Assembly: GCF_013315695.1 (NCBI RefSeq)
Contig: NZ_CP054353.1
Length of the DNA: 64,000 nucleotides
Origin: Escherichia coli
GTDB lineage: Bacteria > Pseudomonadota > Gammaproteobacteria > Enterobacterales > Enterobacteriaceae
Direction: 5' to 3' (one strand)
Shown here: piece after piece, positions 1,479 through 49,331 of the stretch
How the letters are laid out: each line of letters starts with the position of its first letter
Position numbering within the stretch: the first letter of the stretch is position 1
Translations under genes and position numbers: made by a program
Notes under the pieces: model-generated
Database searches by the model: none
Seen by the model: only the letters and a program-made list of their open reading frames with translations
What the model was told of the DNA's origin: nothing

Positions 1479-2681
1479 GTGACGGCGTTAAAAGTAGGAA
1501 GTGAGAGCTGGTGGCAGTCGAAACATGGCCCGGAATGGCAGCGTCTGAATGACGAAATGTTTGAGGTCACTTTCTGGTGGCGTGATCCCCAAGGTTCTGA
1601 AGAATACTCGACGATAAAGCGCGTATGGGTCTACATCACTGGTGTGACCGATCACCATCAGAACACCCAGCCCCGGTCGATGCAGCGAATTGCAGGAACC
1701 GATGTTTGGCAGTGGACGACACAACTCAATGCCAACTGGCGCGGCAGCTACTGCTTTATTCCTACCGAACGCGATGACATTTTTTCTGCACCATCCCCCG
1801 ATCGCCTCGAATTACGCGAAGGCTGGCGAAAACTATTACCCCAGGCGATAGCCGATCCGCTGAATCCACAAAGCTGGAAAGGCGGGCGAGGGCACGCTGT
1901 TTCTGCACTCGAAATGCCGCAAGCGCCTCTGCAACCGGGATGGGATTGTCCGCAAGCGCCAGAAACGCCTGCCAAAGAAATTATCTGGAAAAGTGAGCGG
2001 TTGAAAAATTCACGCCGTGTATGGATTTTTACCACCGGCGATGCAACAGCAGAAGAACGCCCGCTGGCAGTTTTGCTTGATGGCGAATTTTGGGCGCAGA
2101 GTATGCCCGTCTGGCCTGCGCTAACTTCGCTGACCCATCGTCGGCAACTTCCTCCCGCCGTGTATGTGTTGATCGATGCTATCGACACCACGCACCGCGC
2201 CCACGAACTGCCGTGTAATGCGGATTTCTGGCTGGCAGTACAGCAAGAGTTATTACCCCTGGTGAAAGCTATTGCCTCTTTTAGCGATCGCGCCGATCGC
2301 ACCGTGGTCGCCGGGCAGAGTTTTGGTGGGCTTTCTGCGCTGTATGCCGGACTAAACTGGCCTGAACGCTTTGGCTGTGTATTAAGCCAGTCAGGATCGT
2401 ACTGGTGGCCGCATCGGGGCGGGCAGCAAGAAGGTGTTTTACTTGAGCAACTTAAAGCTGGTGAAGTTAGCGCCGAAGGTCTGCGCATTGTGCTGGAAGC
2501 GGGTATTCGCGAGCCGATGATCATGCGGGCCAATCAGGCGCTGTATGCGCAATTACACCTCATAAAAGAATCCATTTTCTGGCGTCAGGTTGACGGCGGA
2601 CATGATGCGCTTTGTTGGCGCGGTGGCTTGATGCAGGGGCTAATCGACCTCTGGCAACCACTTTTCCATGACAGGAGTTGA
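1479..2681 (+). CDS. fes: Enterobactin esterase Fes
   Basis: 400-aa ORF with GTG start (MTALKVGSESWWQ...), matching Fes by recall. A shorter internal start is possible. Confidence 0.9.
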   Translation: MTALKVGSESWWQSKHGPEWQRLNDEMFEVTFWWRDPQGSEEYSTIKRVWVYITGVTDHHQNTQPRSMQRIAGTDVWQWTTQLNANWRGSYCFIPTERDDIFSAPSPDRLELREGWRKLLPQAIADPLNPQSWKGGRGHAVSALEMPQAPLQPGWDCPQAPETPAKEIIWKSERLKNSRRVWIFTTGDATAEERPLAVLLDGEFWAQSMPVWPALTSLTHRRQLPPAVYVLIDAIDTTHRAHELPCNADFWLAVQQELLPLVKAIASFSDRADRTVVAGQSFGGLSALYAGLNWPERFGCVLSQSGSYWWPHRGGQQEGVLLEQLKAGEVSAEGLRIVLEAGIREPMIMRANQALYAQLHLIKESIFWRQVDGGHDALCWRGGLMQGLIDLWQPLFHDRS

Positions 2682-2683
2682 AT

Positions 2684-2902
2684 ATGGCATTCAGTAATCC
2701 CTTCGATGATCCGCAGGGAGCGTTTTACATTTTGCGCAATGCGCAGGGGCAATTCAGTCTGTGGCCGCAACAATGCGCCTTACCGGCAGGCTGGGACGTT
2801 GTGTGTCAGCCGCAGTCACAGGCGTCCTGCCAGCAGTGGCTGGAAGCCCACTGGCGTACTCTGACACCGACGAATTTCACCCAGTTGCAGGAGGTGCAAT
2901 GA
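2684..2902 (+). CDS. ybdZ: MbtH-like protein YbdZ (enterobactin synthase accessory protein)
   Basis: 72-aa ORF MAFSNPFDDPQGAFYILRNAQGQFSLWPQQCALPAGW...; the ATG at 2684 lies 3 nt after the fes stop, and the stop overlaps the entF start (ATGA). Confidence 0.9.
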   Translation: MAFSNPFDDPQGAFYILRNAQGQFSLWPQQCALPAGWDVVCQPQSQASCQQWLEAHWRTLTPTNFTQLQEVQ

Positions 2903-5900
2903 GCCAGCATTTACCTTTGGTCGCCGCACAGCCCGGCATCTGGATGGCAGAAAAACTGTCAGATTTACCCTCCGCCTGGAGCGTGGCGCATTACGTTGAG
3001 TTAACCGGAGAGGTTGATGCGCCATTACTGGCCCGCGCGGTGGTTGCCGGATTAGCGCAAGCAGATACGCTGCGGATGCGTTTTACGGAAGATAACGGCG
3101 AAGTCTGGCAGTGGGTCGATGATGCGCTGACGTTCGAACTGCCAGAAATTATCGACCTGCGAACCAACATTGATCCGCACGGTACTGCGCGGGCATTAAT
3201 GCAGGCGGATTTGCAACAAGATCTGCGCGTCGATAGCGGTAAACCACTGGTCTTTCATCAGTTGATACAGGTGGCGGATAACCGCTGGTACTGGTATCAG
3301 CGTTATCACCATTTGCTGGTCGATGGCTTCAGTTTCCCGGCCATTACCCGCCAGATCGCCAATATTTACTGCGCATGGCTGCGTGGCGAACCAACGCCTG
3401 CTTCGCCGTTTACGCCTTTCGCTGATGTAGTGGAAGAGTACCAGCAATACCGCGAAAGCGAAGCCTGGCAGCGTGATGCGGCATTCTGGGCGGAACAGCG
3501 TCGTCAATTGCCGCCGCCCGCGTCACTTTCTCCGGCACCTTTACCGGGGCGCAGCGCCTCGGCAGATATTCTGCGCCTGAAACTGGAATTTACCGACGGG
3601 GAATTCCGCCAGTTGGCTACGCAACTTTCAGGTGTGCAGCGTACCGATTTAGCCCTTGCGTTGGCAGCCTTGTGGCTGGGGCGATTGTGCAACCGCATGG
3701 ACTACGCTGCCGGATTTATCTTTATGCGTCGACTGGGCTCGGCGGCGCTGACGGCTACCGGACCCGTGCTCAACGTTTTGCCGTTGGGTATTCACATTGC
3801 GGCGCAAGAAACGCTGCCGCAACTGGCAACCCGACTGGCAGCACAACTGAAAAAAATGCGCCGCCATCAACGCTACGACGCCGAACAAATTGTCCGTGAC
3901 AGTGGGCGAGCGGCAGGAGAGGAACCGCTGTTCGGTCCGGTACTCAATATCAAGGTATTTGATTACCAACTGGATATTCCTGGTGTTCAGGCGCAAACCC
4001 ATACCCTGGCAACCGGTCCGGTTAATGACCTTGAACTGGCCCTGTTCCCGGATGAACACGGTGATTTGAGTATTGAGATCCTCGCCAATAAACAGCGTTA
4101 CGATGAGCCAACGTTAATTCAACACGCTGAACGCCTGAAAATGCTGATTGCGCAGTTCGCCGCGGATCCGTCGCTGTTGTGCGGCGATGTCGATATTATG
4201 CTGCCAGGCGAGTATGCGCAGCTGGCGCAGATCAACGCCACTCAGGTTGAGATTCCAGAAACCACGCTGAGCGCGCTGGTGGCAGAAAAAGCGGCAAAAA
4301 CACCGGATGCTCCGGCGCTGGCAGATGCGCGCTACCAGTTCAGCTATCGGGAAATGCGCGAGCAGGTAGTGGCGCTGGCAAATCTCCTGCGTGAGCGTGG
4401 CGTTAAACCGGGCGACAGCGTAGCGGTGGCGCTACCGCGCTCGGTCTTTTTGACTCTGGCGCTACATGCAATTGTTGAGGCTGGTGCGGCCTGGTTACCG
4501 CTGGATACCGGCTATCCGGACGATCGCCTGAAAATGATGCTGGAAGATGCGCGTCCGTCGCTGTTAATCACCACTGACGATCAACTGCCGCGCTTTGCCG
4601 ATGTTCCAGATTTAACCCGCCTTTGCTATAACGCCCCGCTTACACCGCAGGGCAGTGCGCCGCTGCAGCTTTCACAACCGCACCACACGGCTTATATCAT
4701 CTTCACCTCCGGTTCCACCGGCAGACCAAAAGGGGTAATGGTCGGGCAGACGGCTATCGTTAATCGCCTGCTTTGGATGCAAAACCATTACCCGCTTACA
4801 GGCGAAGATGTCGTTGCCCAAAAAACGCCGTGCAGTTTTGATGTCTCGGTGTGGGAGTTTTTCTGGCCGTTTATTGCCGGGGCTAAACTGGTGATGGCTG
4901 AACCGGAAGCGCACCGCGACCCGCTCGCTATGCAGCAATTCTTTGCCGAATATGGTGTAACGACCACGCACTTTGTGCCGTCGATGCTGGCGGCATTTGT
5001 TGCATCGCTGACGCCGCAAACCGCTCGCCAGAGTTGCGCGACGTTGAAACAGGTTTTCTGTAGTGGTGAAGCCTTACCGGCTGATTTATGCCGCGAATGG
5101 CAACAGTTAACCGGCGCGCCGTTGCATAATCTATATGGCCCGACGGAAGCGGCGGTAGATGTCAGTTGGTATCCGGCTTTTGGCGAGGAACTGGCAGAGG
5201 TGCGCGGCAGCAGTGTGCCGATTGGTTATCCGGTGTGGAATACGGGCCTGCGCATTCTCGATGCGATGATGCATCCGGTGCCGCCGGGTGTGGCGGGAGA
5301 TCTCTATCTCACCGGTATTCAACTGGCGCAGGGGTATCTTGGACGACCCGATCTGACCGCCAGCTGCTTTATTGCCGATCCTTTTGCCCCAGGTGAACGG
5401 ATGTACCGTACCGGCGATGTGGCCCGCTGGCTGGATAACGGCGCAGTGGAGTACCTCGGGCGCAGTGACGATCAGCTAAAAATTCGCGGGCAGCGTATCG
5501 AACTGGGCGAAATTGATCGCGTGATGCAGGCGCTGCCGGATGTCGAACAAGCCGTTACCCACGCCTGTGTGATTAACCAGGCGGCAGCCACTGGTGGTGA
5601 TGCGCGTCAGTTGGTGGGCTATCTGGTGTCGCAATCAGGTCTGCCGTTGGATACCAGCGCATTACAGGCGCAGCTTCGTGAAACATTGCCACCACATATG
5701 GTACCGGTGGTTCTGCTGCAACTTCCACAGTTACCACTTAGCGCCAACGGCAAGCTGGATCGCAAAGCCTTACCGTTGCCTGAACTGAAGGCACAAGCGC
5801 CTGGGCGTGCGCCGAAAGCGGGCAGTGAAACGATTATCGCCGCGGCATTCTCGTCGTTGCTGGGTTGTGACGTGCAGGATGCCGATGCTGATTTCTTTGC

Positions 5901-6780: not shown

Positions 6781-6795
6781 ATTAATATTATCTAT

Positions 6796-6834
6796 AAACC
6801 CATAATTACAGGAAATAATTATGGGTTTATCATT
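6796..6834 (+). terminator. Rho-independent terminator after entF
   Basis: Perfect 12-bp inverted repeat aaacccataatt / aattatgggttt with a 9-nt loop, followed by a T-rich tract. Confidence 0.7.
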
Positions 6835-6995
6835 TATTTAATTTATAAGTTTGGTGGATATTTCTCTTAAATAGAGTGAATGTTGCATTCAGTGGAAGGA
6901 ATTTACAAACTTCAGCTTCGGATAATTCTCACCAACTGGTAAAGTGAGCGCCGTGGAGATTTCCCCCTATTGGACTCATTTTCAGGTTATACCCC

Positions 6996-8129
6996 ATGTC
7001 ATCACTGAATATTAAACAGGGAAGTGACGCTCATTTTCCCGAGTATCCTCTGGCGTCGCCCAGTAATAATGAAATTGATTTACTTAATCTAATTGAAGTT
7101 TTATGGCGGGCCAAAAAAACGGTCATGGCGGTCGTTTTTGCGTTTGCCTGCGCAGGTTTACTGATCTCTTTCATCCTACCGCAAAAATGGACCTGCGCGG
7201 CGGTTGTCACGCCTCCAGAACCTGTTCAGTGGCAGGCGCTTGAGAAAACATTCACTAAGCTTCGTGTGCTGGATCTGGATATCAAAATTGATCGTACAGA
7301 AGCATTTAACCTGTTTATCAAGAAGTTTCAGTCGGTTAGCTTGCTGGAAGAGTACCTGCGTTCATCACCTTATGTGATGGACCAATTAAAAGAGGCGAAA
7401 ATCGATGAACTGGATTTGCATCGCGCAATTGTCGCATTGAGCGAAAAAATGAAAGCGGTTGATGACAATGCCAGTAAGAAAAAAGATGAACCGTCACTGT
7501 ATACCTCCTGGACGCTAAGTTTTACCGCGCCAACCAGTGAAGAGGCGCAGACCGTTTTGAGCGGGTATATCGATTATATCTCTGCGTTGGTGGTGAAAGA
7601 GTCGATAGAAAACGTCCGTAATAAACTGGAGATCAAAACCCAGTTTGAAAAAGAAAAACTGGCTCAGGATCGCATTAAAACGAAAAATCAACTTGATGCA
7701 AACATTCAGCGCCTCAATTATTCACTCGACATTGCCAACGCGGCAGGAATTAAAAAGCCCGTTTACAGTAATGGTCAGGCCGTTAAAGATGACCCCGATT
7801 TCTCTATTTCTCTCGGCGCAGACGGTATTGAACGCAAACTGGAAATTGAAAAAGCGGTTACTGACGTTGCGGAACTGAACGGTGAATTACGTAATCGTCA
7901 GTATCTTGTTGAGCAGCTAACAAAAGCAAATATCAACGATGTGAATTTTACGCCGTTTAAATATCAGTTAAGCCCGTCATTGCCAGTGAAAAAAGACGGT
8001 CCGGGTAAGGCGATTATTGTGATCCTTTCTGCGATGATCGGCGGGATGGTGGCTTGTGGTGGCGTGCTGTTGCGCTATGCGATGGCATCCAGAAAACAGG
8101 ATGCCGTGATGGAAGAGCACTTAGTTTAA
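6996..8129 (+). CDS. fepE: Polysaccharide co-polymerase family protein FepE (O-antigen chain-length regulator-like)
   Basis: 377-aa ORF MSSLNIKQGSDAHF..., recalled FepE sequence. Confidence 0.9.
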   Translation: MSSLNIKQGSDAHFPEYPLASPSNNEIDLLNLIEVLWRAKKTVMAVVFAFACAGLLISFILPQKWTCAAVVTPPEPVQWQALEKTFTKLRVLDLDIKIDRTEAFNLFIKKFQSVSLLEEYLRSSPYVMDQLKEAKIDELDLHRAIVALSEKMKAVDDNASKKKDEPSLYTSWTLSFTAPTSEEAQTVLSGYIDYISALVVKESIENVRNKLEIKTQFEKEKLAQDRIKTKNQLDANIQRLNYSLDIANAAGIKKPVYSNGQAVKDDPDFSISLGADGIERKLEIEKAVTDVAELNGELRNRQYLVEQLTKANINDVNFTPFKYQLSPSLPVKKDGPGKAIIVILSAMIGGMVACGGVLLRYAMASRKQDAVMEEHLV

Positions 8130-8941
8130 ATCTTGGCAGTTGAAGGTGCCGTTCGTCCGAGCGGCACCACGAGCGGCGTTCCGGCAACCGGATCGTCAAT
8201 AATCATGCAGCGCAGACCATAAATGCGCTCAATCAGTTCAGCAGTGACAATCTCCTTCGGCGCTCCCTGAGCAACAATTTTCCCTTCCCGCAATGCAATC
8301 AAATGGCTGGCGTAACGACAGGCCTGATTAAGATCGTGCAGCACCGCCGCCAGGGTATAGCCTTTCTCGCGGTTCAGTTCGCTTAACAGTTCCAGTAGAT
8401 CAATCTGATGACTGATATCCAGCCAGGTCGTGGGTTCGTCGAGCAGCATAATTGCCGTTTCCTGGGCCAGCACCATTGCTATCCACGCTCGCTGGCGTTG
8501 TCCGCCAGAAAGGGTATCCACGCTTTGATCTGCCAGATGAGTGATTCCCGTGGCCTGCATCGCTTTTGTGACTGCCTCTTCATCTTCTTTCCGCCAGCGG
8601 GTAAACAGCGGTTGATGCGGGTAACGTCCACGCGCCACCAGCTCCTGCACGGTGATATCGCCCGGCGTGGTAGCATTTTGCGCCAACAGACCAATCCGGC
8701 GTGCAACCTCTTTACTGGCGTAATGTTGAATGTGCTCACCATCCAGCCAGACATGCCCGTGAGCAGGCGTCATCAGGCGGCTTAAAGTACGCAGTAAAGT
8801 GGATTTACCGCAGCCATTTGGCCCGATAATTGCCGTGAAGTGACCATCAGGTATTTCTACAGTCAGATTCTCCGCAACGGTATATTTGCCATATCCGAGG
8901 GTTAACTGTTCGCCGCGCAAACGGGCTACTGATTCGGTCAT
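8126..8941 (-). CDS. fepC: Ferric enterobactin ABC transporter ATPase FepC
   Basis: Start MTESVARLRGEQLTLGYGKYTV at the ATG at 8941; Walker A GPNGCGKST; 271 aa. The track ORF is extended upstream to 9082. Confidence 0.92.
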   Translation of the reverse strand: MTESVARLRGEQLTLGYGKYTVAENLTVEIPDGHFTAIIGPNGCGKSTLLRTLSRLMTPAHGHVWLDGEHIQHYASKEVARRIGLLAQNATTPGDITVQELVARGRYPHQPLFTRWRKEDEEAVTKAMQATGITHLADQSVDTLSGGQRQRAWIAMVLAQETAIMLLDEPTTWLDISHQIDLLELLSELNREKGYTLAAVLHDLNQACRYASHLIALREGKIVAQGAPKEIVTAELIERIYGLRCMIIDDPVAGTPLVVPLGRTAPSTAKI

Positions 8942-9930
8942 TTTTTGCGAGACTCCTGAATTAACAAGACGATAAGGTAAATACCGCCGAGGCTGACGGT
9001 AACGACGCCAACCGGAAGTTGATACGGCATAAACAGTTGTTGGGCGCAGAGATCGGCCGCCAGCAGTAACAACGCCCCGCACAGCGCCGCCTGGGTCAGC
9101 CCCCAGCGAGCGGTGCCGCTAATGCGTCGGGCAATGTGCGGCGCGACTAAAGCAATAAAGGAAATCGGCCCGGCAAGCGCTGTTGCCGCAGCGGTAAGCA
9201 CCACTGCAACCAGCATCATTAACAGACGCGAACGTTCGACGCTGACGCCCAGCGCACACGCGGTATCATCGCCCATTTCCAGCAAGCGCATCCGGCGTAC
9301 CAGTAAGGCGGCGGCAATTAGCATCAATATAATGATGGGTGCGGAAGGCGAGGTTTTTGCCCACGTCAGGCCGTTGAGCGATCCGGCATTCCATAAACCC
9401 GCTGTTAGCGCCGTTTCTAAAGACGCTTTCAGCAACAGCCAGGTATTAAAGGCCACCAGCATGGCGCGAACGCCGATACCAATAATAATCAACCGAAAGG
9501 TGTCGATGCCGTTACGCCAGGCGAGCAGCCAGACCAGCAGCGAAGTGACAATGCCGCCCACCATTGCTGCCAGCGCGATAGCCGTCAGATCCTGACCAAA
9601 CAGCACCATCGCCACCAGCACGCCGCTCCACGCCCCGGTGTTAAAGCCCATTACGTCAGGGCTACCGAGCGGGTTACGCATCAGCGACTGAAAAATCGCG
9701 CCGCTGACGCCCAGAGCCGCGCCAATTAACAGCGCCATCAGCACGCGTGGTAAACGCCATTCAGTGACCACCATCGTCATACTGCGCGGCGCATCGCCCA
9801 TCAGCGCGGCGAATACCTGCGAGGTTTCCAGCGTGACGGTACCGCTGCGTAATCCCCAGATACCTGCAACCACACAGGCGGTAATTAGCAGCAAACAGGT
9901 GATGATTAATCGGCGAGAGACGTAAATCAT
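8938..9930 (-). CDS. fepG: Ferric enterobactin ABC transporter permease FepG
   Basis: 330-aa polytopic membrane ORF; its stop overlaps the fepC start (ATGA). Confidence 0.92.
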   Translation of the reverse strand: MIYVSRRLIITCLLLITACVVAGIWGLRSGTVTLETSQVFAALMGDAPRSMTMVVTEWRLPRVLMALLIGAALGVSGAIFQSLMRNPLGSPDVMGFNTGAWSGVLVAMVLFGQDLTAIALAAMVGGIVTSLLVWLLAWRNGIDTFRLIIIGIGVRAMLVAFNTWLLLKASLETALTAGLWNAGSLNGLTWAKTSPSAPIIILMLIAAALLVRRMRLLEMGDDTACALGVSVERSRLLMMLVAVVLTAAATALAGPISFIALVAPHIARRISGTARWGLTQAALCGALLLLAADLCAQQLFMPYQLPVGVVTVSLGGIYLIVLLIQESRKK

Positions 9931-11041: not shown

Positions 11042-12292
11042 ATGAATAAACAATCCTGGCTGCTTAACCTCAGCCTGTTGAAAACGCACCCGGCGTTTCG
11101 CGCAGTATTCCTCGCTCGTTTTATCTCAATTGTTTCTCTGGGTTTGCTCGGCGTCGCGGTGCCGGTGCAGATCCAGATGATGACGCATTCTACCTGGCAG
11201 GTGGGGCTTTCGGTGACGCTGACCGGCGGCGCGATGTTTGTTGGCCTGATGGTCGGCGGTATGCTGGCGGATCGCTATGAGCGTAAAAAAGTGATTTTGC
11301 TGGCGCGCGGCACCTGTGGCATTGGCTTCATTGGACTGTGCCTGAACGCGCTGCTGCCGGAGCCGTCATTGCTGGCAATCTATTTACTTGGTTTATGGGA
11401 TGGTTTTTTCGCATCACTTGGCGTTACGGCGCTACTGGCGGCGACACCTGCACTGGTAGGGCGTGAAAACCTAATGCAGGCCGGGGCGATCACCATGTTG
11501 ACTGTGCGTCTGGGATCGGTGATTTCGCCCATGATTGGCGGTTTACTGCTGGCGACCGGAGGCGTAGCTTGGAACTACGGGCTGGCGGCGGCGGGCACGT
11601 TTATTACCTTGCTACCGTTGTTAAGCCTTCCGGCGTTGCCACCACCGCCGCAGCCGCGTGAGCATCCGTTGAAATCATTACTGGCAGGATTTCGTTTTCT
11701 ACTCGCCAGCCCGCTGGTGGGAGGGATTGCGTTGCTGGGTGGTTTATTGACGATGGCGAGCGCGGTGCGGGTCCTGTATCCGGCGCTGGCTGACAACTGG
11801 CAGATGTCGGCGGCACAGATTGGTTTTCTCTATGCGGCGATTCCGCTCGGCGCGGCTATTGGCGCGTTAACCAGCGGGAAGCTGGCACATAGTGCGCGAC
11901 CAGGGTTATTGATGCTGCTCTCCACGCTGGGATCGTTCCTTGCCATTGGTCTGTTTGGCCTGATGCCGATGTGGATTTTAGGCGTGGTTTGCCTGGCGCT
12001 GTTCGGTTGGTTGAGCGCGGTTAGTTCGTTGCTGCAATATACAATGCTGCAAACGCAAACCCCGGAAGCGATGTTAGGGCGGATTAACGGTTTGTGGACG
12101 GCGCAAAACGTGACGGGCGATGCCATAGGCGCAGCGCTGCTGGGCGGTTTGGGCGCGATGATGACACCGGTTGCTTCCGCAAGCGCGAGCGGTTTTGGTT
12201 TGTTGATTATCGGCGTGTTGTTATTGCTGGTGCTGGTGGAGTTGCGACGTTTTCGCCAGACGCCGCCGCAGATGACAGCGTCCGACAGTTAA
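11042..12292 (+). CDS. entS: Enterobactin exporter EntS (MFS transporter)
   Basis: 416-aa [33 protein letters not shown]..., multi-pass membrane protein. Confidence 0.92.
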
Positions 12293-12295
12293 TGC

Positions 12296-13252
12296 TTAAA
12301 ACAGCGCCTTAAGTCGTTCCAGCACTTGCATGGCGCTGTAGTAATCCAGGCGGAACGTCTCGGTTCCCAGCGCATAAACCTGCTTGTTTTGTACTGCAGG
12401 CAGGTGCGCGAGCAGTGGATTGGCATAAATCGCATCGGCATCTTTCTGATCACCAGCGAACAGGAATAGTGAATCGCCATTTAACCCTGCAGCCAGATTT
12501 TCTCCACCAAGCTGAATGATGTCATGGCGTTTGCCTTGGCTTTGGCTGGCGTTTAACCCTGCGGGCAATTTCGCCAACGTAAAGCCGAGTTGTTCCAGCA
12601 TCTGCCCTTGTGCTGATTCCGGCGTCCAGAGATTGGCACTGTGTGCAGCGGCGGTATAGACAATGGCAGTGACCGGCTGCGGCGGTAATTTGATTTGCTC
12701 TTTCGCCGCCGCCAGTTGCTTATCAAACTGTGCAATCCGCTCTGCCGCTTGTTTCTCATGCCCGGTAATTTCGCCAAGCTGCGTTAACAGCGACTGCCAG
12801 CTTTTGTCGTCGTAATTGATGATTAATGTTGGGGCGATGGTAGAAAGCTGATCGTACAGCGCCAGCGCCGAATCCCCGCCGGTTGCGCTAATTAAAATCA
12901 GATCCGGCATTTGCGCGGCAACGGCTTCGGCGCTCGGTTCGCCGATATAGATCCGTTGCAGTTTGCGTTCTTTCGCCACCTTGCTCCACTGGCGTAAAAA
13001 GCCCTGGTCATCCGCGACGCGGTTATTTGGCGTGGTCGCGCCGCTGGCGATCACCGGAGCATCAATCGCCAGCAGTGAGCCGGTCAGGGTGACGCTGGTG
13101 GAAACTATACGCTGCGGCTGGCTTTCCAGGGTATGAGTGCCCCGGCTGTCAGTAATCTGACGCGGCCAGTCGGCGGCCTGAACTGCGACTATTCCTGAAA
13201 GCAAAAGTCCTGTTAATAGAAGGGCGTTGCGGTAGAGCGGGGCGAGTCTCAC
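12296..13252 (-). CDS. fepB: Ferric enterobactin periplasmic binding protein FepB
   Basis: 318-aa ORF with GTG start ([20 protein letters not shown]...), signal peptide. Confidence 0.9.
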
Positions 13253-20667: not shown

Positions 20668-20865
20668 ATGTTTGATTCACTGGCAAAAGCCGGAAAATAT
20701 TTAGGTCAGGCGGCGAAACTGATGATTGGTATGCCTGATTACGACAACTATGTCGAACATATGCGGGTTAACCATCCCGATCAAACGCCGATGACCTACG
20801 AGGAGTTTTTCCGTGAGCGGCAGGACGCGCGCTACGGTGGAAAAGGCGGCGCGCGCTGCTGCTAA
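20668..20865 (+). CDS. ybdD: Small DUF466-family protein YbdD, the conserved partner of cstA
   Basis: 65-aa [61 protein letters not shown]... Confidence 0.85.
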
Positions 20866-20874
20866 ATTTGTACG

Positions 20875-21963
20875 TCAGGCTTTAAACGATTCCACTTTTT
20901 CGAACGCTGCACGCAACGTATCCGGTGTCAGCGTGACCGGCAGGTAATGAATGGATTCCACCGGACGTAAGGTGTGGGCAATCACTTTGTCGATCTCCGC
21001 CTGATTATTGATATCCACTTCCAGCTCCGCCAGCGTAGTCGGCAGATGAAAACGCTGATACGCCCCGGTTAATTGCGCCAGCACATCATCCTGACCCAGC
21101 AAGGCGCTTTGCACCAGAATTCCGTAGGCGACTTTGGTGCCGTGGAGAAACTTCTCGGTTTGCGGCAGCACGGTCAGACCGTTATGCACGGCATGGGCCG
21201 CCGCCACACGCGTAAAACGATCGCCCAGACCACCGACCATTCCACCTCCGGCGATAATCGCATCCACCACATCGCAAAATGATTGCGTTAACTGGTGATT
21301 TTGCTGATCGCTCAGCGCCTGTTCGCTACTGTTTAACAAGACGTCGCGAATAGCCTGCGCATTATTGATCCCTAGCCGCACGGTTAGCGGCAACGTTTCT
21401 GGTTGCGGGGCCAGCACCACCGCTTCATACCATTTCGCCAGCGTGTCACCGATCCCCGCCAGCAGATATTGTTGCGGCGCGTTGAGGATAATCTCCGGTT
21501 CCACCAGCACCATAAAATTGGCGTCGTCGAAAATCTCATAATGCAGCGCTTGTCCGGCATCGTTGTACCAGACAGAGAGCGGTGTCCAGGCTGCGCAGGT
21601 AGCGGCGATCGTCGGAACGGCAACAAACGGCAGACCGAGACGGCGGGCGAGGGCTTTCGCGGTGTCGAGCAGTGCGCCGCCGCCGACGCCAATCACCACG
21701 CTGCGATCGTCACCGGACTCAGCCGCCAGTTGTTGTACATCGCTTTCGCTGCAATGACCACGAAACAAAATATGCTTTACCCCTGGCAGTTCAAACGCAG
21801 GCGGCAGTTTGGTTTGTGCCGCAGCAATGGCGCGTTCGCCGTAGATCCACACTGCGCGAGAAAGTTGTTCATCAGTGAAAAAATCGTGCAGGTGATTGAA
21901 ACTTCCGGGATGTGAAAAGTAGTTAGCCGGGCCGACGACCACGCGGATAGGATTGTGAGGCAT
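20875..21963 (-). CDS. ybdH: Iron-containing group III alcohol dehydrogenase family protein YbdH (hydroxycarboxylate dehydrogenase)
   Basis: 362-aa ORF MPHNPIRVVVGPANYFSHPGSFNHLHDFF... Confidence 0.88.
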   Translation of the reverse strand: MPHNPIRVVVGPANYFSHPGSFNHLHDFFTDEQLSRAVWIYGERAIAAAQTKLPPAFELPGVKHILFRGHCSESDVQQLAAESGDDRSVVIGVGGGALLDTAKALARRLGLPFVAVPTIAATCAAWTPLSVWYNDAGQALHYEIFDDANFMVLVEPEIILNAPQQYLLAGIGDTLAKWYEAVVLAPQPETLPLTVRLGINNAQAIRDVLLNSSEQALSDQQNHQLTQSFCDVVDAIIAGGGMVGGLGDRFTRVAAAHAVHNGLTVLPQTEKFLHGTKVAYGILVQSALLGQDDVLAQLTGAYQRFHLPTTLAELEVDINNQAEIDKVIAHTLRPVESIHYLPVTLTPDTLRAAFEKVESFKA

Positions 21964-27055: not shown

Positions 27056-27426
27056 TAATTTGTCCTTTTCAGTCAGTGCAAAAGTCGAGTAAAAGGCATA
27101 ACCTATCACTGTCATAGGTAAGAGCTTAGATCAGGTGATTGCCCTTTGTTTATGAGGGTGTTGTAATCCATGTCGTTGTTGCATTTGTAAAGGCAACACC
27201 TCAGCCTGCAGGCAGGCGCTGAAGATACCAAAGGGTAGTTCAGATTACACGGTCACCTGGAAAGGGGGCCATTTTACTTTTTATCGCCGCTGGCGGTGCA
27301 AAGTTCACAAAGTTGTCTTACGAAGGTTGTAAGGTAAAACTTATCGATTTGATAATGGAAACGCATTAGCCGAATCGGCAAAAATTGGTTACCTTACATC
27401 TCATCGAAAACACGGAGGAAGTATAG
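27056..27426. promoter_or_regulatory. dsbG/ahpC divergent promoter region (OxyR-regulated by established knowledge; sites not precisely mapped here)
   Basis: Intergenic; ATAG/CTAT-like elements around 27320-27365. The boundaries given are the whole intergenic span, not a mapped site. Confidence 0.45.
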
Positions 27427-31040: not shown

Positions 31041-31082
31041 CATACCCAAAAGAAAACCCTCACCGTCAGGCGGCGAGGGTTT
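31041..31082 (-). terminator. Rho-independent terminator downstream of rna (reverse strand)
   Basis: aaaccctc…gagggttt stem; the reverse strand is followed by ttcttttggg. Confidence 0.55.
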
Positions 31083-31228
31083 AACGCACATGATGATACT
31101 GACTGTTGCTCACTCTTTGAAGTGATTTGCGTCACATTCAGGGAATTCCTCAATGTAGCGCATTATGTATAAATCTTAATCGTCATGGTTTATGGAAGAC
31201 GAATTAGCGTGTTTTGTAAATCAGAGGA

Positions 31229-44150: not shown

Positions 44151-44324
44151 GACAAATGAAGTTTTAGTAAATTCTTTAAAATCAACCACTAAAATAATTA
44201 ACATCAAAAATAACGCGACTTTTATCACTTTTTAGTAAAGTTGCACTGGACAAAGCGTACCACAATTGGTGTACTGGTAACCGACACAGCATTTGTGTCT
44301 ATTTTTCATGTAAAGGTAATTTTG

Positions 44325-44534
44325 ATGTCTAAGATTAAAGGTAACGTTAAGTGGTTTAATGAGTCCAAAGGATTCGGTTTCATTACTCCGGAAGACGGCA
44401 GCAAAGACGTGTTCGTACACTTCTCTGCAATCCAGACTAATGGTTTTAAAACTCTTGCTGAAGGTCAGCGCGTAGAGTTCGAAATCACTAACGGTGCCAA
44501 AGGCCCTTCTGCTGCAAACGTAATCGCTCTGTAA
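44325..44534 (+). CDS. cspE: Cold-shock-family protein CspE
   Basis: [69 protein letters not shown], 69 aa. Confidence 0.95.
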
Positions 44535-44553
44535 GATACGTCAGCAAGAATTC

Positions 44554-44582
44554 AAAACCCGCTTAATCAGCGGGTTTTTTTT
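44554..44582. terminator. Rho-independent terminator between convergent cspE and crcB, likely bidirectional
   Basis: aaaacccgc-ttaatca-gcgggtttt followed by a T-run of 8 or more; A-run on the 5' side. Confidence 0.8.
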
Positions 44583-48633: not shown

Positions 48634-48909
48634 GTGGCTTCTGTTTCTATCAGCTGTCCCTCCTGTTCAGCTACTGACGGGGTGGTGCGTAACGGCAAAA
48701 GCACCGCCGGACATCAGCGCTATCTCTGCTCTCACTGCCGTAAAACATGGCAACTGCAGTTCACTTACACCGCTTCTCAACCCGGTACGCACCAGAAAAT
48801 CATTGATATGGCCATGAATGGCGTTGGATGCCGGGCAACAGCCCGCATTATGGGCGTTGGCCTCAACACGATTTTACGTCACTTAAAAAACTCAGGCCGC
48901 AGTCGGTAA
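48634..48909 (+). CDS. insA: IS1 InsA (transposition repressor / N-terminal part of the InsAB' transposase)
   Basis: [94 protein letters not shown] start. Confidence 0.95.
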
Positions 48910-49331
48910 CCTCGCGCATACAGCCGGGCAGTGACGTCATCGTCTGCGCGGAAATGGACGAACAGTGGGGCTATGTCGGGGCTAAATCGCGCCAGCGCTG
49001 GCTGTTTTACGCGTATGACAGGCTCCGGAAGACGGTTGTTGCGCACGTATTCGGTGAACGCACTATGGCGACGCTGGGGCGTCTTATGAGCCTGCTGTCA
49101 CCCTTTGACGTGGTGATATGGATGACGGATGGCTGGCCGCTGTATGAATCCCGCCTGAAGGGAAAGCTGCACGTAATCAGCAAGCGATATACGCAGCGAA
49201 TTGAGCGGCATAACCTGAATCTGAGGCAGCACCTGGCACGGCTGGGACGGAAGTCGCTGTCGTTCTCAAAATCGGTGGAGCTGCATGACAAAGTCATCGG
49301 GCATTATCTGAACATAAAACACTATCAATAA
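48828..49331 (+). CDS. insB: IS1 InsB frame; the functional transposase InsAB' is made by a -1 ribosomal frameshift from insA
   Basis: 167-aa [67 protein letters not shown]…. Confidence 0.9.

What the first reader, a model, noticed from the sequence alone, without database searches (positions are those of the whole stretch)
8126..8129. Convergent fepE and fepC overlap by 4 bp with no room for a terminator
The fepE stop (TAA 8127-8129) and the fepC stop (reverse complement of 8126-8128) share bases. Transcripts from either side must end inside the partner gene, which implies antisense transcription over the 3' ends or Rho-dependent termination.
Basis: seen in the sequence. Interest (0 to 1): 0.25.

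Follow-up and report, generated by a model that had tools for sequence, protein, structure and literature searches.

The report
fepE–fepC four-base stop-codon overlap
Two E. coli genes on opposite strands, fepE and fepC, do end in a shared TTAA, but this is an annotated and ordinary kind of junction; the terminator-bearing spacer that related bacteria keep there appears to be replaced by two conserved RNA hairpins inside the gene ends.

Summary
fepE (6996-8129, +) and fepC (8126-8941, -) share the tetramer TTAA at 8126-8129. RefSeq annotates the same 4-bp overlap, and this junction type is present in about 5407 of 5426 complete E. coli genomes. Four-base convergent overlaps (TTAA, CTAA, TTAG, CTAG) are a published class, and 4 of the 10 convergent junctions in this window have spacers of 9 nt or less.

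Each transcript must end inside the partner gene, and there is no canonical intrinsic terminator. "No room for a terminator" overstates it. Two stable stem-loops without U tracts flank the overlap:
- H2 (8145-8168), 15 nt after the fepE stop, -19.6 kcal/mol, top 0.1% of the window.
- H1 (8082-8107), 20 nt after the fepC stop.

Each is followed by unstructured RNA with more C than G. Both are invariant in four Escherichia species and nearly monomorphic in E. coli, while adjacent coding DNA varies. This matches the published layout of Rho-dependent 3' ends (Dar & Sorek 2018).

The overlap is derived. Citrobacter, Salmonella, Pseudocitrobacter, Intestinirhabdus and a rare E. coli fepE allele keep a 30-190 nt spacer, all but one checked carrying one strong hairpin. 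No 3'-end data for this locus could be found, so the mechanism is inferred. Interest is low.

The parts
6996..8129 (+). fepE, also called wzz(fepE): LPS O-antigen chain-length regulator, 377 aa, stop TAA at 8127-8129
   Evidence: ORF list, translation, RefSeq annotation, NCBIfam NF007699 at 620 bits covering residues 1-368
8126..8941 (-). fepC: ferric-enterobactin ABC transporter ATPase, 271 aa, stop TAA as the reverse complement of 8126-8128
   Evidence: NCBIfam NF007606 at 613 bits covering residues 1-265
8126..8129 (.). TTAA tetramer that holds both stop codons, the 4-bp convergent overlap
   Evidence: Sequence. Same junction in 9 of 9 aligned Escherichia sequences. One of the four tetramers that permit this overlap (PMC2174442)
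8129..8152 (-). Escherichia-specific 8-codon tail of FepC (TAPSTAKI) after the conserved ...VVPLGR. Other genera stop 1-9 codons after PLGR, mostly 1-3
   Evidence: C-terminal comparison of 16 loci. The NCBIfam model ends at residue 265
8145..8168 (.). Hairpin H2: GGUGCCGUUC-GUCC-GAGCGGCACC on the fepE transcript, 10 bp, -19.6 kcal/mol, no U tract, starting 16 nt after the fepE stop. The same DNA forms a -15.0 kcal/mol hairpin on the fepC transcript. One arm is the conserved VVPL codons and the other is the genus-specific tail
   Evidence: Folds with z = -3.97. Top 0.1% of all 36-nt windows and one of 11 plus-strand loci at -19 kcal/mol or below. Invariant in 9 Escherichia sequences. Its 30-mer matches (28-nt or longer exact word) in 5312 of 5426 E. 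coli genomes, against 1872 for the adjacent 30-mer
8082..8107 (.). Hairpin H1: AUGGCAUCC-AGAAAACA-GGAUGCCGU, -15.1 kcal/mol on the plus strand. On the fepC transcript it is a 7-bp stem at 8105->8084, -13.7 kcal/mol, starting 21 nt after the fepC stop, with no U tract
   Evidence: Folds. Only a loop change and one U-A to U-G change in 9 Escherichia sequences. Its 30-mer matches (28-nt or longer exact word) in 5092 of 5426 genomes, against 2484 for the adjacent 30-mer. By energy alone it is not exceptional: 12-21% of random 103-nt segments hold a hairpin as good
7996..8125 (-). RNA downstream of the fepC stop, antisense to the fepE 3' end. Apart from H1 it is C-rich, G-poor and unstructured. Candidate Rho loading (rut) region
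   Evidence: C 29-31 against G 14 per 78 nt, 99th-99.7th percentile. 36-nt minimum free energies of 0 to -3 kcal/mol from 8080 to 8010
8208..8311 (+). RNA downstream of the fepE stop and H2, antisense to fepC. More C than G and weakly structured. Candidate rut region
   Evidence: C 26 against G 14-15 per 78 nt, 95th-97th percentile. 36-nt minimum free energies of -1 to -4 kcal/mol from 8215 to 8290

Best explanation
The 4-bp TTAA overlap is a real, fixed and annotated feature of the Escherichia enterobactin cluster. It is an ordinary member of the known class of 4-nt convergent stop-stop overlaps.

It is a derived state. The common ancestor with Citrobacter and Salmonella had a short spacer carrying one strong hairpin, a terminator serving both genes. 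In Escherichia the spacer was lost and the fepC frame runs 8 codons further, until the reverse complement of the fepE stop region supplies a stop.

3'-end formation has moved into the coding ends. Each transcript passes its own stop and, 15-20 nt later, meets a stable stem-loop without a U tract that is encoded in the partner's last codons. This is H2 for fepE mRNA and H1 for fepC mRNA. It then enters untranslated, unstructured RNA with more C than G, on which Rho can load and terminate. 3' exonucleases trim back to the stem-loop, which defines and protects the mature 3' end.

Shown: the overlap, its distribution, the hairpins, their conservation, and the composition. Inferred: Rho dependence, the protective role of the hairpins, and the direction of evolutionary change.
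For: Overlap and annotation.

Known class: PMC2174442 names TTAA among the four permissive tetramers and counts 58 convergent overlaps in E. coli.

Derived state: 16 fepE-fepC junctions were compared.
- E. coli, Escherichia sp. MOD1-EC7003, E. albertii and E. whittamii overlap by 4 bp, with FepC ending PLGRTAPSTA(KI/NS/MI).
- Citrobacter, Salmonella, Pseudocitrobacter and Intestinirhabdus have 30-190 nt spacers, with FepC ending mostly 1-3 residues after PLGR.
- Each spacer except Intestinirhabdus holds one hairpin of -17 to -25 kcal/mol. In Intestinirhabdus the best hairpins lie beyond the 36-nt spacer.
- In Salmonella the hairpin is flanked by an A tract and a U tract (z = -4.8 and -5.7).
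- A rare E. coli allele (strains H6, NCTC9967, SCPM-O-B-8794) keeps a 35-36 nt spacer with a textbook intrinsic terminator, GGGGAGCG-GTAATG-CGCTCCCT followed by T7.

Hairpins in the window: H2 -19.6 kcal/mol, z = -3.97; top 0.1%; H1.

No intrinsic-terminator-like site near the junction.

Nucleotide-level constraint:
- 2 of 53 hairpin columns vary against 37 of 113 flank columns in 9 Escherichia sequences (Fisher p = 1e-5).
- 40% of fepC third codon positions vary among the same species.
- The hairpin 30-mers are found in 98% and 94% of 5426 E. coli genomes, against 35% and 46% for adjacent coding 30-mers.

rut-like composition.

Published layout: Dar & Sorek 2018 (PMC6061677) report that Rho-dependent 3' ends, including those inside downstream coding regions, lie just after stable stem-loops lacking U tracts, with C-over-G enrichment downstream.

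Generality: 13 of 18 stops at convergent junctions in this window have a hairpin of -15 kcal/mol or below within 100 nt, against 12% for random segments. Among the four tight junctions it is 5 of 8 (binomial p = 0.0012).
Against: - No transcript 3'-end, bicyclomycin or Rho ChIP data for fepE or fepC could be retrieved. The Adams 2021 and SMRT-Cappable-seq supplements do not list either gene.
- The hairpins are invariant, so there is no covariation. Conservation alone cannot separate RNA structure from another nucleotide-level constraint.
- H1 is not exceptional in energy (12-21% of random segments).
- The C-rich tract after fepC is simply the antisense of G-rich codons for the FepE C-terminal hydrophobic segment, so it may be incidental.
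- The 26-nt invariant run at H2 is only the fourth longest in fepC. A permutation test of the longest invariant codon run is not significant (p = 0.19).
- The hairpin and conservation tests were chosen after seeing the data.
- The direction of evolution rests on outgroup parsimony, and the spacers are not alignable between genera.
Confidence: 0.55

Rival explanations
1. Collision-driven bidirectional termination. Both convergent units are derepressed together when Fur releases them. RNA polymerases pause at H1 and H2 and meet head-on between or around them. Collisions, helped by trailing polymerases, end both transcripts without Rho or a U tract.
For: - The pair is convergent, and published operon tables list both units as Fur-controlled: fes-ybdZ-entF-fepE and fepDGC (PMC4145685).
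- The Liu laboratory preprint describes bidirectional terminators between convergent E. coli genes that do not resemble intrinsic terminators and do not depend on Rho. It reports that the encoded hairpin is needed to fix the collision site.
- H1 and H2 are strong hairpins without U tracts, 37 nt apart, around the shared stops.
Against: - The described elements are single hairpins between gene boundaries. Here there are two, inside coding ends.
- fepE may be transcribed mainly from its own weaker promoter. An AT-rich hairpin with a T run follows entF at 6794-6830, and an RcsB-box-like site lies at 6918-6931 (PMC7913699).
- fepE also responded differently from fes/entF in serum. Symmetric, dense traffic is therefore not assured.
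- There are no SEnd-seq data for this pair.
- This rival is not exclusive of the Rho model.
Confidence: 0.2
2. Nothing dedicated. The overlap is a neutral by-product of a spacer deletion or stop loss. Transcripts read diffusely into the partner gene at low levels and are degraded. H1 and H2 are incidental, or are conserved for reasons unrelated to RNA 3' ends, such as codon or amino-acid constraint, a DNA-binding palindrome, or low local mutation.
For: - 4-nt convergent overlaps are explained statistically by stop-codon loss followed by the next available stop (PMC2174442).
- The tails encoded around the overlap are variable and lie outside the family models.
- H1 energy is unremarkable.
- There is no covariation.
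- The invariant run at H2 is not the longest in fepC.
Against: - H2 is in the top 0.1% of local stabilities and sits 15 nt after a stop.
- One arm of each hairpin lies in codons outside the conserved protein core, yet is invariant across four species and 94-98% of E. coli genomes, while adjacent coding 30-mers are polymorphic.
- All lineages with a spacer except Intestinirhabdus also keep a strong hairpin in it, although its sequence turns over. This argues that a hairpin at this junction is selected.
Confidence: 0.15
3. Regulatory antisense coupling. Read-through from one unit makes RNA complementary to the 3' end of the other. The duplex is cut by RNase III, or polymerases interfere, so that iron-uptake expression and O-antigen chain-length control are reciprocally tuned.
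For: - Geometry guarantees complementary 3' regions if both units are transcribed.
- Escherichia lost the insulating spacer that its relatives keep.
- fepE behaved differently from the rest of its nominal operon in serum.
Against: - There is no expression evidence.
- The conserved hairpins and rut-like tracts look like devices that limit read-through rather than exploit it.
- Three other unrelated gene pairs in the same window have 0-9 nt convergent spacers, so tight junctions need no special regulatory logic.
Confidence: 0.08

Closest known systems
4-nucleotide convergent stop-stop overlaps of prokaryotic genes (TTAA, CTAA, TTAG, CTAG), as in Lillo & Krakauer 2007, PMC2174442
   Same: Two genes on opposite strands with both stops inside one tetramer, here TTAA. 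The origin is consistent with stop loss and extension to the next stop. The paper counts 58 convergent overlaps in E. coli and notes that any terminator must then lie in the partner's coding sequence.
   Different: Nothing essential. This locus adds a dated polarity (derived within Escherichia) and a within-species alternative allele that retains the spacer.
Rho-dependent mRNA 3' ends defined by protective stem-loops (Dar & Sorek 2018, PMC6061677)
   Same: A stable stem-loop shortly after the stop, no U tract and no upstream A tract, C-over-G RNA immediately downstream, and placement inside a neighbouring coding region.
   Different: Here the layout occurs twice, mirror-wise, around one shared TTAA. 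Rho dependence and the exact 3' ends are not measured for these genes.
Bidirectional terminators between convergent E. coli genes resolved by RNA polymerase collisions (Ju et al. 2019 as summarised in Wang et al. 2022, bioRxiv 10.1101/2022.10.23.513370)
   Same: A convergent pair, hairpin-encoding elements that are not canonical intrinsic terminators, and probably co-induced units.
   Different: The described elements are single hairpins in the intergenic gap. Here there is no gap and there are two hairpins in the coding ends. No SEnd-seq evidence is available for this pair.
Canonical intrinsic or bidirectional terminator at the same junction in relatives (Salmonella, and the E. coli H6/NCTC9967/SCPM-O-B-8794 allele)
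   Same: Same gene pair, same position between the two stops, and a GC-rich hairpin of similar strength.
   Different: Those have a 35-54 nt spacer and T or A runs flanking the stem. The window has no spacer and no U tract.

Membership tests
4-nt convergent stop-stop overlap | Two protein-coding genes on opposite strands, each identified by homology | tested here: met
   NCBIfam equivalogs Wzz(fepE) at 620 bits against a cutoff of 300, and FepC at 613 against 497. RefSeq annotation
4-nt convergent stop-stop overlap | Both in-frame stop codons lie within one tetramer drawn from TTAA, CTAA, TTAG, CTAG | tested here: met
   TTAA at 8126-8129, with TAA on both strands. Tetramer list from PMC2174442
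Intrinsic (Rho-independent) terminator | GC-rich stem-loop shortly after the stop | tested here: met
   H2 at -19.6 kcal/mol, 16 nt after the fepE stop. H1 at -13.7 kcal/mol, 21 nt after the fepC stop
Intrinsic (Rho-independent) terminator | U-rich tract of about 7-8 nt immediately 3' of the stem | tested here: not met
   After H2 on the plus strand the RNA is ACGAGCGGCG. After H1 on the minus strand it is AUCGCAUAGC. The consensus scan finds no terminator-like site between 7000 and 8900
Rho-dependent 3' end with protective stem-loop (Dar & Sorek layout) | Stable stem-loop without a U tract at the transcript end | tested here: met
   The structural element is present on both strands. That transcripts end there is not shown
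Rho-dependent 3' end with protective stem-loop (Dar & Sorek layout) | C-over-G, weakly structured RNA immediately downstream (rut) | tested here: met
   99th-99.7th percentile on the minus strand and 95th-97th percentile on the plus strand. 36-nt minimum free energies near zero
Rho-dependent 3' end with protective stem-loop (Dar & Sorek layout) | Read-through on Rho inhibition (bicyclomycin), and a steady-state 3' end mapped just after the stem | not testable with these tools
   No data for fepE or fepC in the supplements held. Peters 2012 and Ju 2019 are not held
Collision-type bidirectional terminator | A hairpin element located between the boundaries of a convergent pair | tested here: inconclusive
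   The pair is convergent, but there is no gap, and two hairpins lie inside the coding ends instead of one between them
Collision-type bidirectional terminator | Both units transcribed at the same time, with 3' ends dependent on the opposing transcription | not testable with these tools
   Co-regulation by Fur is taken from an operon table (PMC4145685). No transcript data

The most novel reading that the evidence does not exclude
Escherichia lost the insulating terminator spacer between fepE and fepDGC. The 3' ends of the two units are now physically coupled, through convergent polymerase traffic or complementary 3' RNA. [quoted passage not shown] The rare E. coli allele that retains an intrinsic terminator would be the uncoupled natural control.
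Probability: 0.07. Interest if true: 0.5.

Novelty: already known. Interest (0 to 1): 0.15.

Why it matters
As it stands, it matters little. The overlap is in every RefSeq annotation of E. coli and belongs to a described class.

Its modest value is as a clean, datable example of what happens when a convergent pair loses its terminator spacer. The hairpin function seems to be rebuilt from coding sequence, with one arm in conserved codons and one arm in a new C-terminal tail.

E. coli also offers a natural comparison, because a few strains (H6, NCTC9967, SCPM-O-B-8794) keep a spacer with a canonical terminator.

There is a practical corollary, which is an inference. Deletions of fepE remove H1 and deletions of fepC remove H2, so single-gene knock-outs here could alter the partner's mRNA 3' end and should be checked for such effects.

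Tried and rejected
1. Experimental 3'-end and Rho data.
- The Adams 2021 eLife and SMRT-Cappable-seq supplements contain no fepE or fepC entries.
- No supplements are held as text for Dar & Sorek 2018 or Conway 2014.
- Ju 2019 and Peters 2012 are not held.
- Full-text searches for fepE with terminator or Rho-dependent found nothing relevant.

2. An apparent 20-bp overlap in a Citrobacter MAG (L022) and a 12-nt gap in C. amalonaticus (L017) were artefacts. My stop extension started from tblastn alignments that ran through the real stop. The true gaps are 37 and 33 nt.

3. Rfam at gathering thresholds has no family at the junction.

4. Covariation could not be tested. Both stems are invariant, apart from one U-A to U-G change.

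5. Invariant-run statistics within fepC alone are not significant: fourth-longest run, permutation p = 0.19. The flank-versus-hairpin and population comparisons carry the argument instead.

6. The mutational path from spacer to overlap could not be reconstructed, because the spacers are not alignable between genera. A 1-nt frameshift after the GR codons is possible, but I only noticed it by eye.

7. The donor of the rare E. coli fepE allele was not found. It is 73-79% identical to every other allele sampled, Escherichia, Citrobacter and Salmonella alike.

8. No promoter-like sites that would drive dedicated antisense transcripts were found between 7000 and 9200, apart from one on the plus strand at 9242.

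Full report
**Observation.** The window is E. coli: 6700-9200 is 100% identical to strain MSB1_4I (NZ_LR898874.1), and 5417 of 5426 complete genomes hold the region. The sequence at 8120-8129 is CTTAGTTTAA. The fepE ORF (6996-8129, +, 377 aa) ends at TAA 8127-8129. The fepC ORF ends at TAA, the reverse complement of 8126-8128. The genes therefore share TTAA at 8126-8129.

RefSeq annotates the same 4-bp overlap in MSB1_4I, in a 4.65-Mb laboratory strain, and in five further E. coli genomes chosen across the identity range. A 201-nt query across the junction is matched at 80% coverage or more in 5407 of 5426 genomes.

NCBIfam equivalog models confirm both identities. They end at FepE residue 368 of 377 and FepC residue 265 of 271, so the overlap lies in tails outside the conserved cores. 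Both stops are the first in-frame stops, and they are the same in every Escherichia sequence examined.

**How unusual it is.** It is not unusual. [quoted passage not shown] They count 58 convergent overlaps in E. coli and point out that any terminator must then sit in the partner's coding sequence. Within this window the ten convergent junctions have spacers of -4, 0, 3, 9, 40, 44, 53, 100, 117 and 120 nt. One of the tight ones, entS against fepB with 3 nt, is in the same enterobactin cluster.

**Evolution of the junction.** A scan of one genome per species with FepE returned 77 loci. fepC lies convergent to fepE only in Escherichia, Citrobacter, Salmonella, Pseudocitrobacter and Intestinirhabdus. 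In Enterobacter, Lelliottia, Buttiauxella and others fepE lies elsewhere.
- All four Escherichia lineages (E. coli, Escherichia sp. MOD1-EC7003, E. albertii, E. whittamii) have the TTAA overlap, and FepC ends ...VVPLGRTAPSTA(KI/NS/MI).
- All other genera have a 30-190 nt spacer, and FepC ends mostly 1-3 residues after PLGR, at most 9. Two apparent exceptions were artefacts of my stop extension.
- FepE ends ...LV* in Escherichia and in several Citrobacter and Salmonella sequences, but not in all lineages.
- By outgroup comparison, the overlap and the 8-codon FepC tail are derived in Escherichia.
- Each spacer except the one in Intestinirhabdus holds one strong hairpin of -17 to -25 kcal/mol, whose sequence differs between lineages. 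In Intestinirhabdus the best hairpins lie beyond the 36-nt spacer.
- In Salmonella the hairpin is AAAAAGCCGGAUA-GCGAU-UAUCCGGCUUUUU, a symmetric terminator-like element (z = -4.8 and -5.7).

E. coli itself is polymorphic. Strains H6 and NCTC9967, and SCPM-O-B-8794 from the species scan, carry a fepE allele only 76-79% identical to the common one. They have a 35-36 nt spacer with a textbook intrinsic terminator (GGGGAGCG-GTAATG-CGCTCCCT followed by T7) and a 266-aa FepC.

**What replaces the spacer.** The consensus scan finds no intrinsic-terminator-like site near the junction. Two stem-loops flank the shared stops.
- H2 (8145-8168; GGUGCCGUUC-GUCC-GAGCGGCACC) begins 16 nt after the fepE stop. 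It has -19.6 kcal/mol and z = -3.97, and is in the top 0.1% of all 36-nt windows of the 64 kb. Only 1.5% of random 103-nt segments contain one as good.
- H1 (8082-8107) begins 21 nt after the fepC stop on the minus strand. It has -13.7 kcal/mol there and -15.1 on the plus strand. By energy alone it is not exceptional, since 12-21% of random segments match it.
- Neither hairpin is followed by a U tract.
- In both, one arm lies in relatively conserved codons (VVPL of FepC, MAS of FepE). The other arm lies in the variable C-terminal tail.

Beyond each hairpin the RNA is predicted to be almost unstructured and richer in C than G. In 78-nt windows, the tract after fepC has C 29-31 against G 14 (99th-99.7th percentile of the window). 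The tract 80-180 nt after fepE has C 26 against G 14-15 (95th-97th percentile).

**Conservation.** In nine Escherichia sequences from four species, both hairpins are essentially invariant. There is one loop change, and one U-A to U-G change that keeps the pair. The flanks vary: 2 of 53 hairpin columns against 37 of 113 flank columns (Fisher p = 1e-5). Among the same species, 40% of fepC third codon positions vary.

Across 5426 E. coli genomes, megablast (which needs an exact word of 28 nt or more) finds the H2 30-mer in 5312 and the H1 30-mer in 5092. About 220 more genomes carry the window's G variant. The directly adjacent coding 30-mers are found in only 1872 and 2484 genomes.

There are three caveats. 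There is no covariation. The tests were chosen after seeing the hairpins. Within fepC alone, the invariant run at H2 is only the fourth longest.

**Mechanism.** The layout on each strand is stop codon, then about 15-20 nt, then a stable stem-loop without a U tract, then unstructured RNA with more C than G. This is what Dar & Sorek (PMC6061677) report for Rho-dependent 3' ends in E. coli, including ends that lie inside downstream coding regions. They argue that the stem-loop protects the RNA from PNPase and RNase II, and that the rut site lies just downstream.

I therefore favour Rho-dependent termination in the partner's antisense, followed by trimming back to H2 for fepE mRNA and to H1 for fepC mRNA. 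The pattern is general in this window. Thirteen of 18 stops at convergent junctions have a hairpin of -15 kcal/mol or below within 100 nt, against a null of 12%. At the four tight junctions the count is 5 of 8 (p = 0.0012).

A non-exclusive alternative is collision-driven termination with the hairpins as pause sites. Operon tables list both units as Fur-controlled. However, fepE may have its own promoter. An AT-rich hairpin with a T run follows entF at 6794-6830. A sequence identical in pattern to the Salmonella RcsB box of the fepE promoter lies at 6918-6931.

None of this is backed by transcript data. I could find no 3'-end or bicyclomycin data for these genes.

**Verdict.**
Transcripts must end in the partner gene and a Rho-type layout is present, but "no room for a terminator" ignores conserved hairpins embedded in the coding ends.
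- The overlap itself is already known and ordinary.
- The embedded-hairpin layout is at most a new example of a described layout.
- The loss of the spacer in Escherichia, together with a rare allele that keeps it, is a small but tidy evolutionary story.
- Interest is low.

Noticed in passing
window 12292-12296 (entS + ends 12292; fepB - begins 12296); hairpin about 12254-12287 on the minus strand: A second tight convergent junction in the same enterobactin cluster, with only 3 nt between the entS and fepB stops. A -23.4 kcal/mol hairpin (top 0.01% of the window) lies just after the fepB stop, inside the entS 3' coding end. This is the same layout as at fepE/fepC.
   Followed up: partly
window 23232/23233 (ybdL/ybdM) and 20865-20875 (ybdD/hcxA): Two more convergent junctions with 0-nt and 9-nt spacers. 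Each has hairpins of -12.5 to -18.9 kcal/mol within 40 nt after the stops, inside the partner gene.
   Followed up: partly
window 6794-6830 and 6918-6931 (entF-fepE intergenic region): A perfect 15-bp AT-rich palindrome followed by a T-rich run lies 14 nt after the entF stop (-15.8 kcal/mol). TCGGATAATTCTCA lies 65 nt upstream of the fepE start and matches the pattern of the RcsB box reported in the Salmonella fepE promoter. Together they suggest that fepE is at least partly transcribed on its own rather than only as fes-ybdZ-entF-fepE.
   Followed up: partly
L080 (E. coli H6) 1511-3486; L081 (NCTC9967); L007 (SCPM-O-B-8794): A rare, deeply divergent fepE allele in E. coli: 379 aa, 76-79% identical to the common allele and about equally distant from Citrobacter and Salmonella. 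The replaced segment ends exactly at the last codons of fepC and carries a spacer with an intrinsic terminator. The donor is unknown.
   Followed up: partly
window 8108-8144: The 37 nt between the two hairpins, which encode both protein tails and the shared stops, are the most variable part of the junction. FepE ends VMEEHLV here against MMADHLV in the K-12-like strain, and FepC ends STAKI against STANS. The window strain's junction haplotype is a minority: 220 of 5414 genomes are 99% identical or more over 201 nt.
   Followed up: yes
window 8938-8941 and 9927-9930: Co-directional 4-nt ATGA overlaps (stop of the upstream gene with the start of the downstream gene) at fepG/fepC and fepD/fepG. 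This is the usual signature of translational coupling in fepDGC.
   Followed up: no
window 43589-44150 and 48634-49331: In this strain pagP is annotated as a frameshifted pseudogene, and an IS1A element sits between lipB and ybeF.
   Followed up: no
window 44134-44582 (+), 31045-31153 (-), 27189-27282 (+): Rfam gathering-level hits: cspA-type thermoregulator at cspE, the rnk leader, and sRNA STnc70.
   Followed up: no
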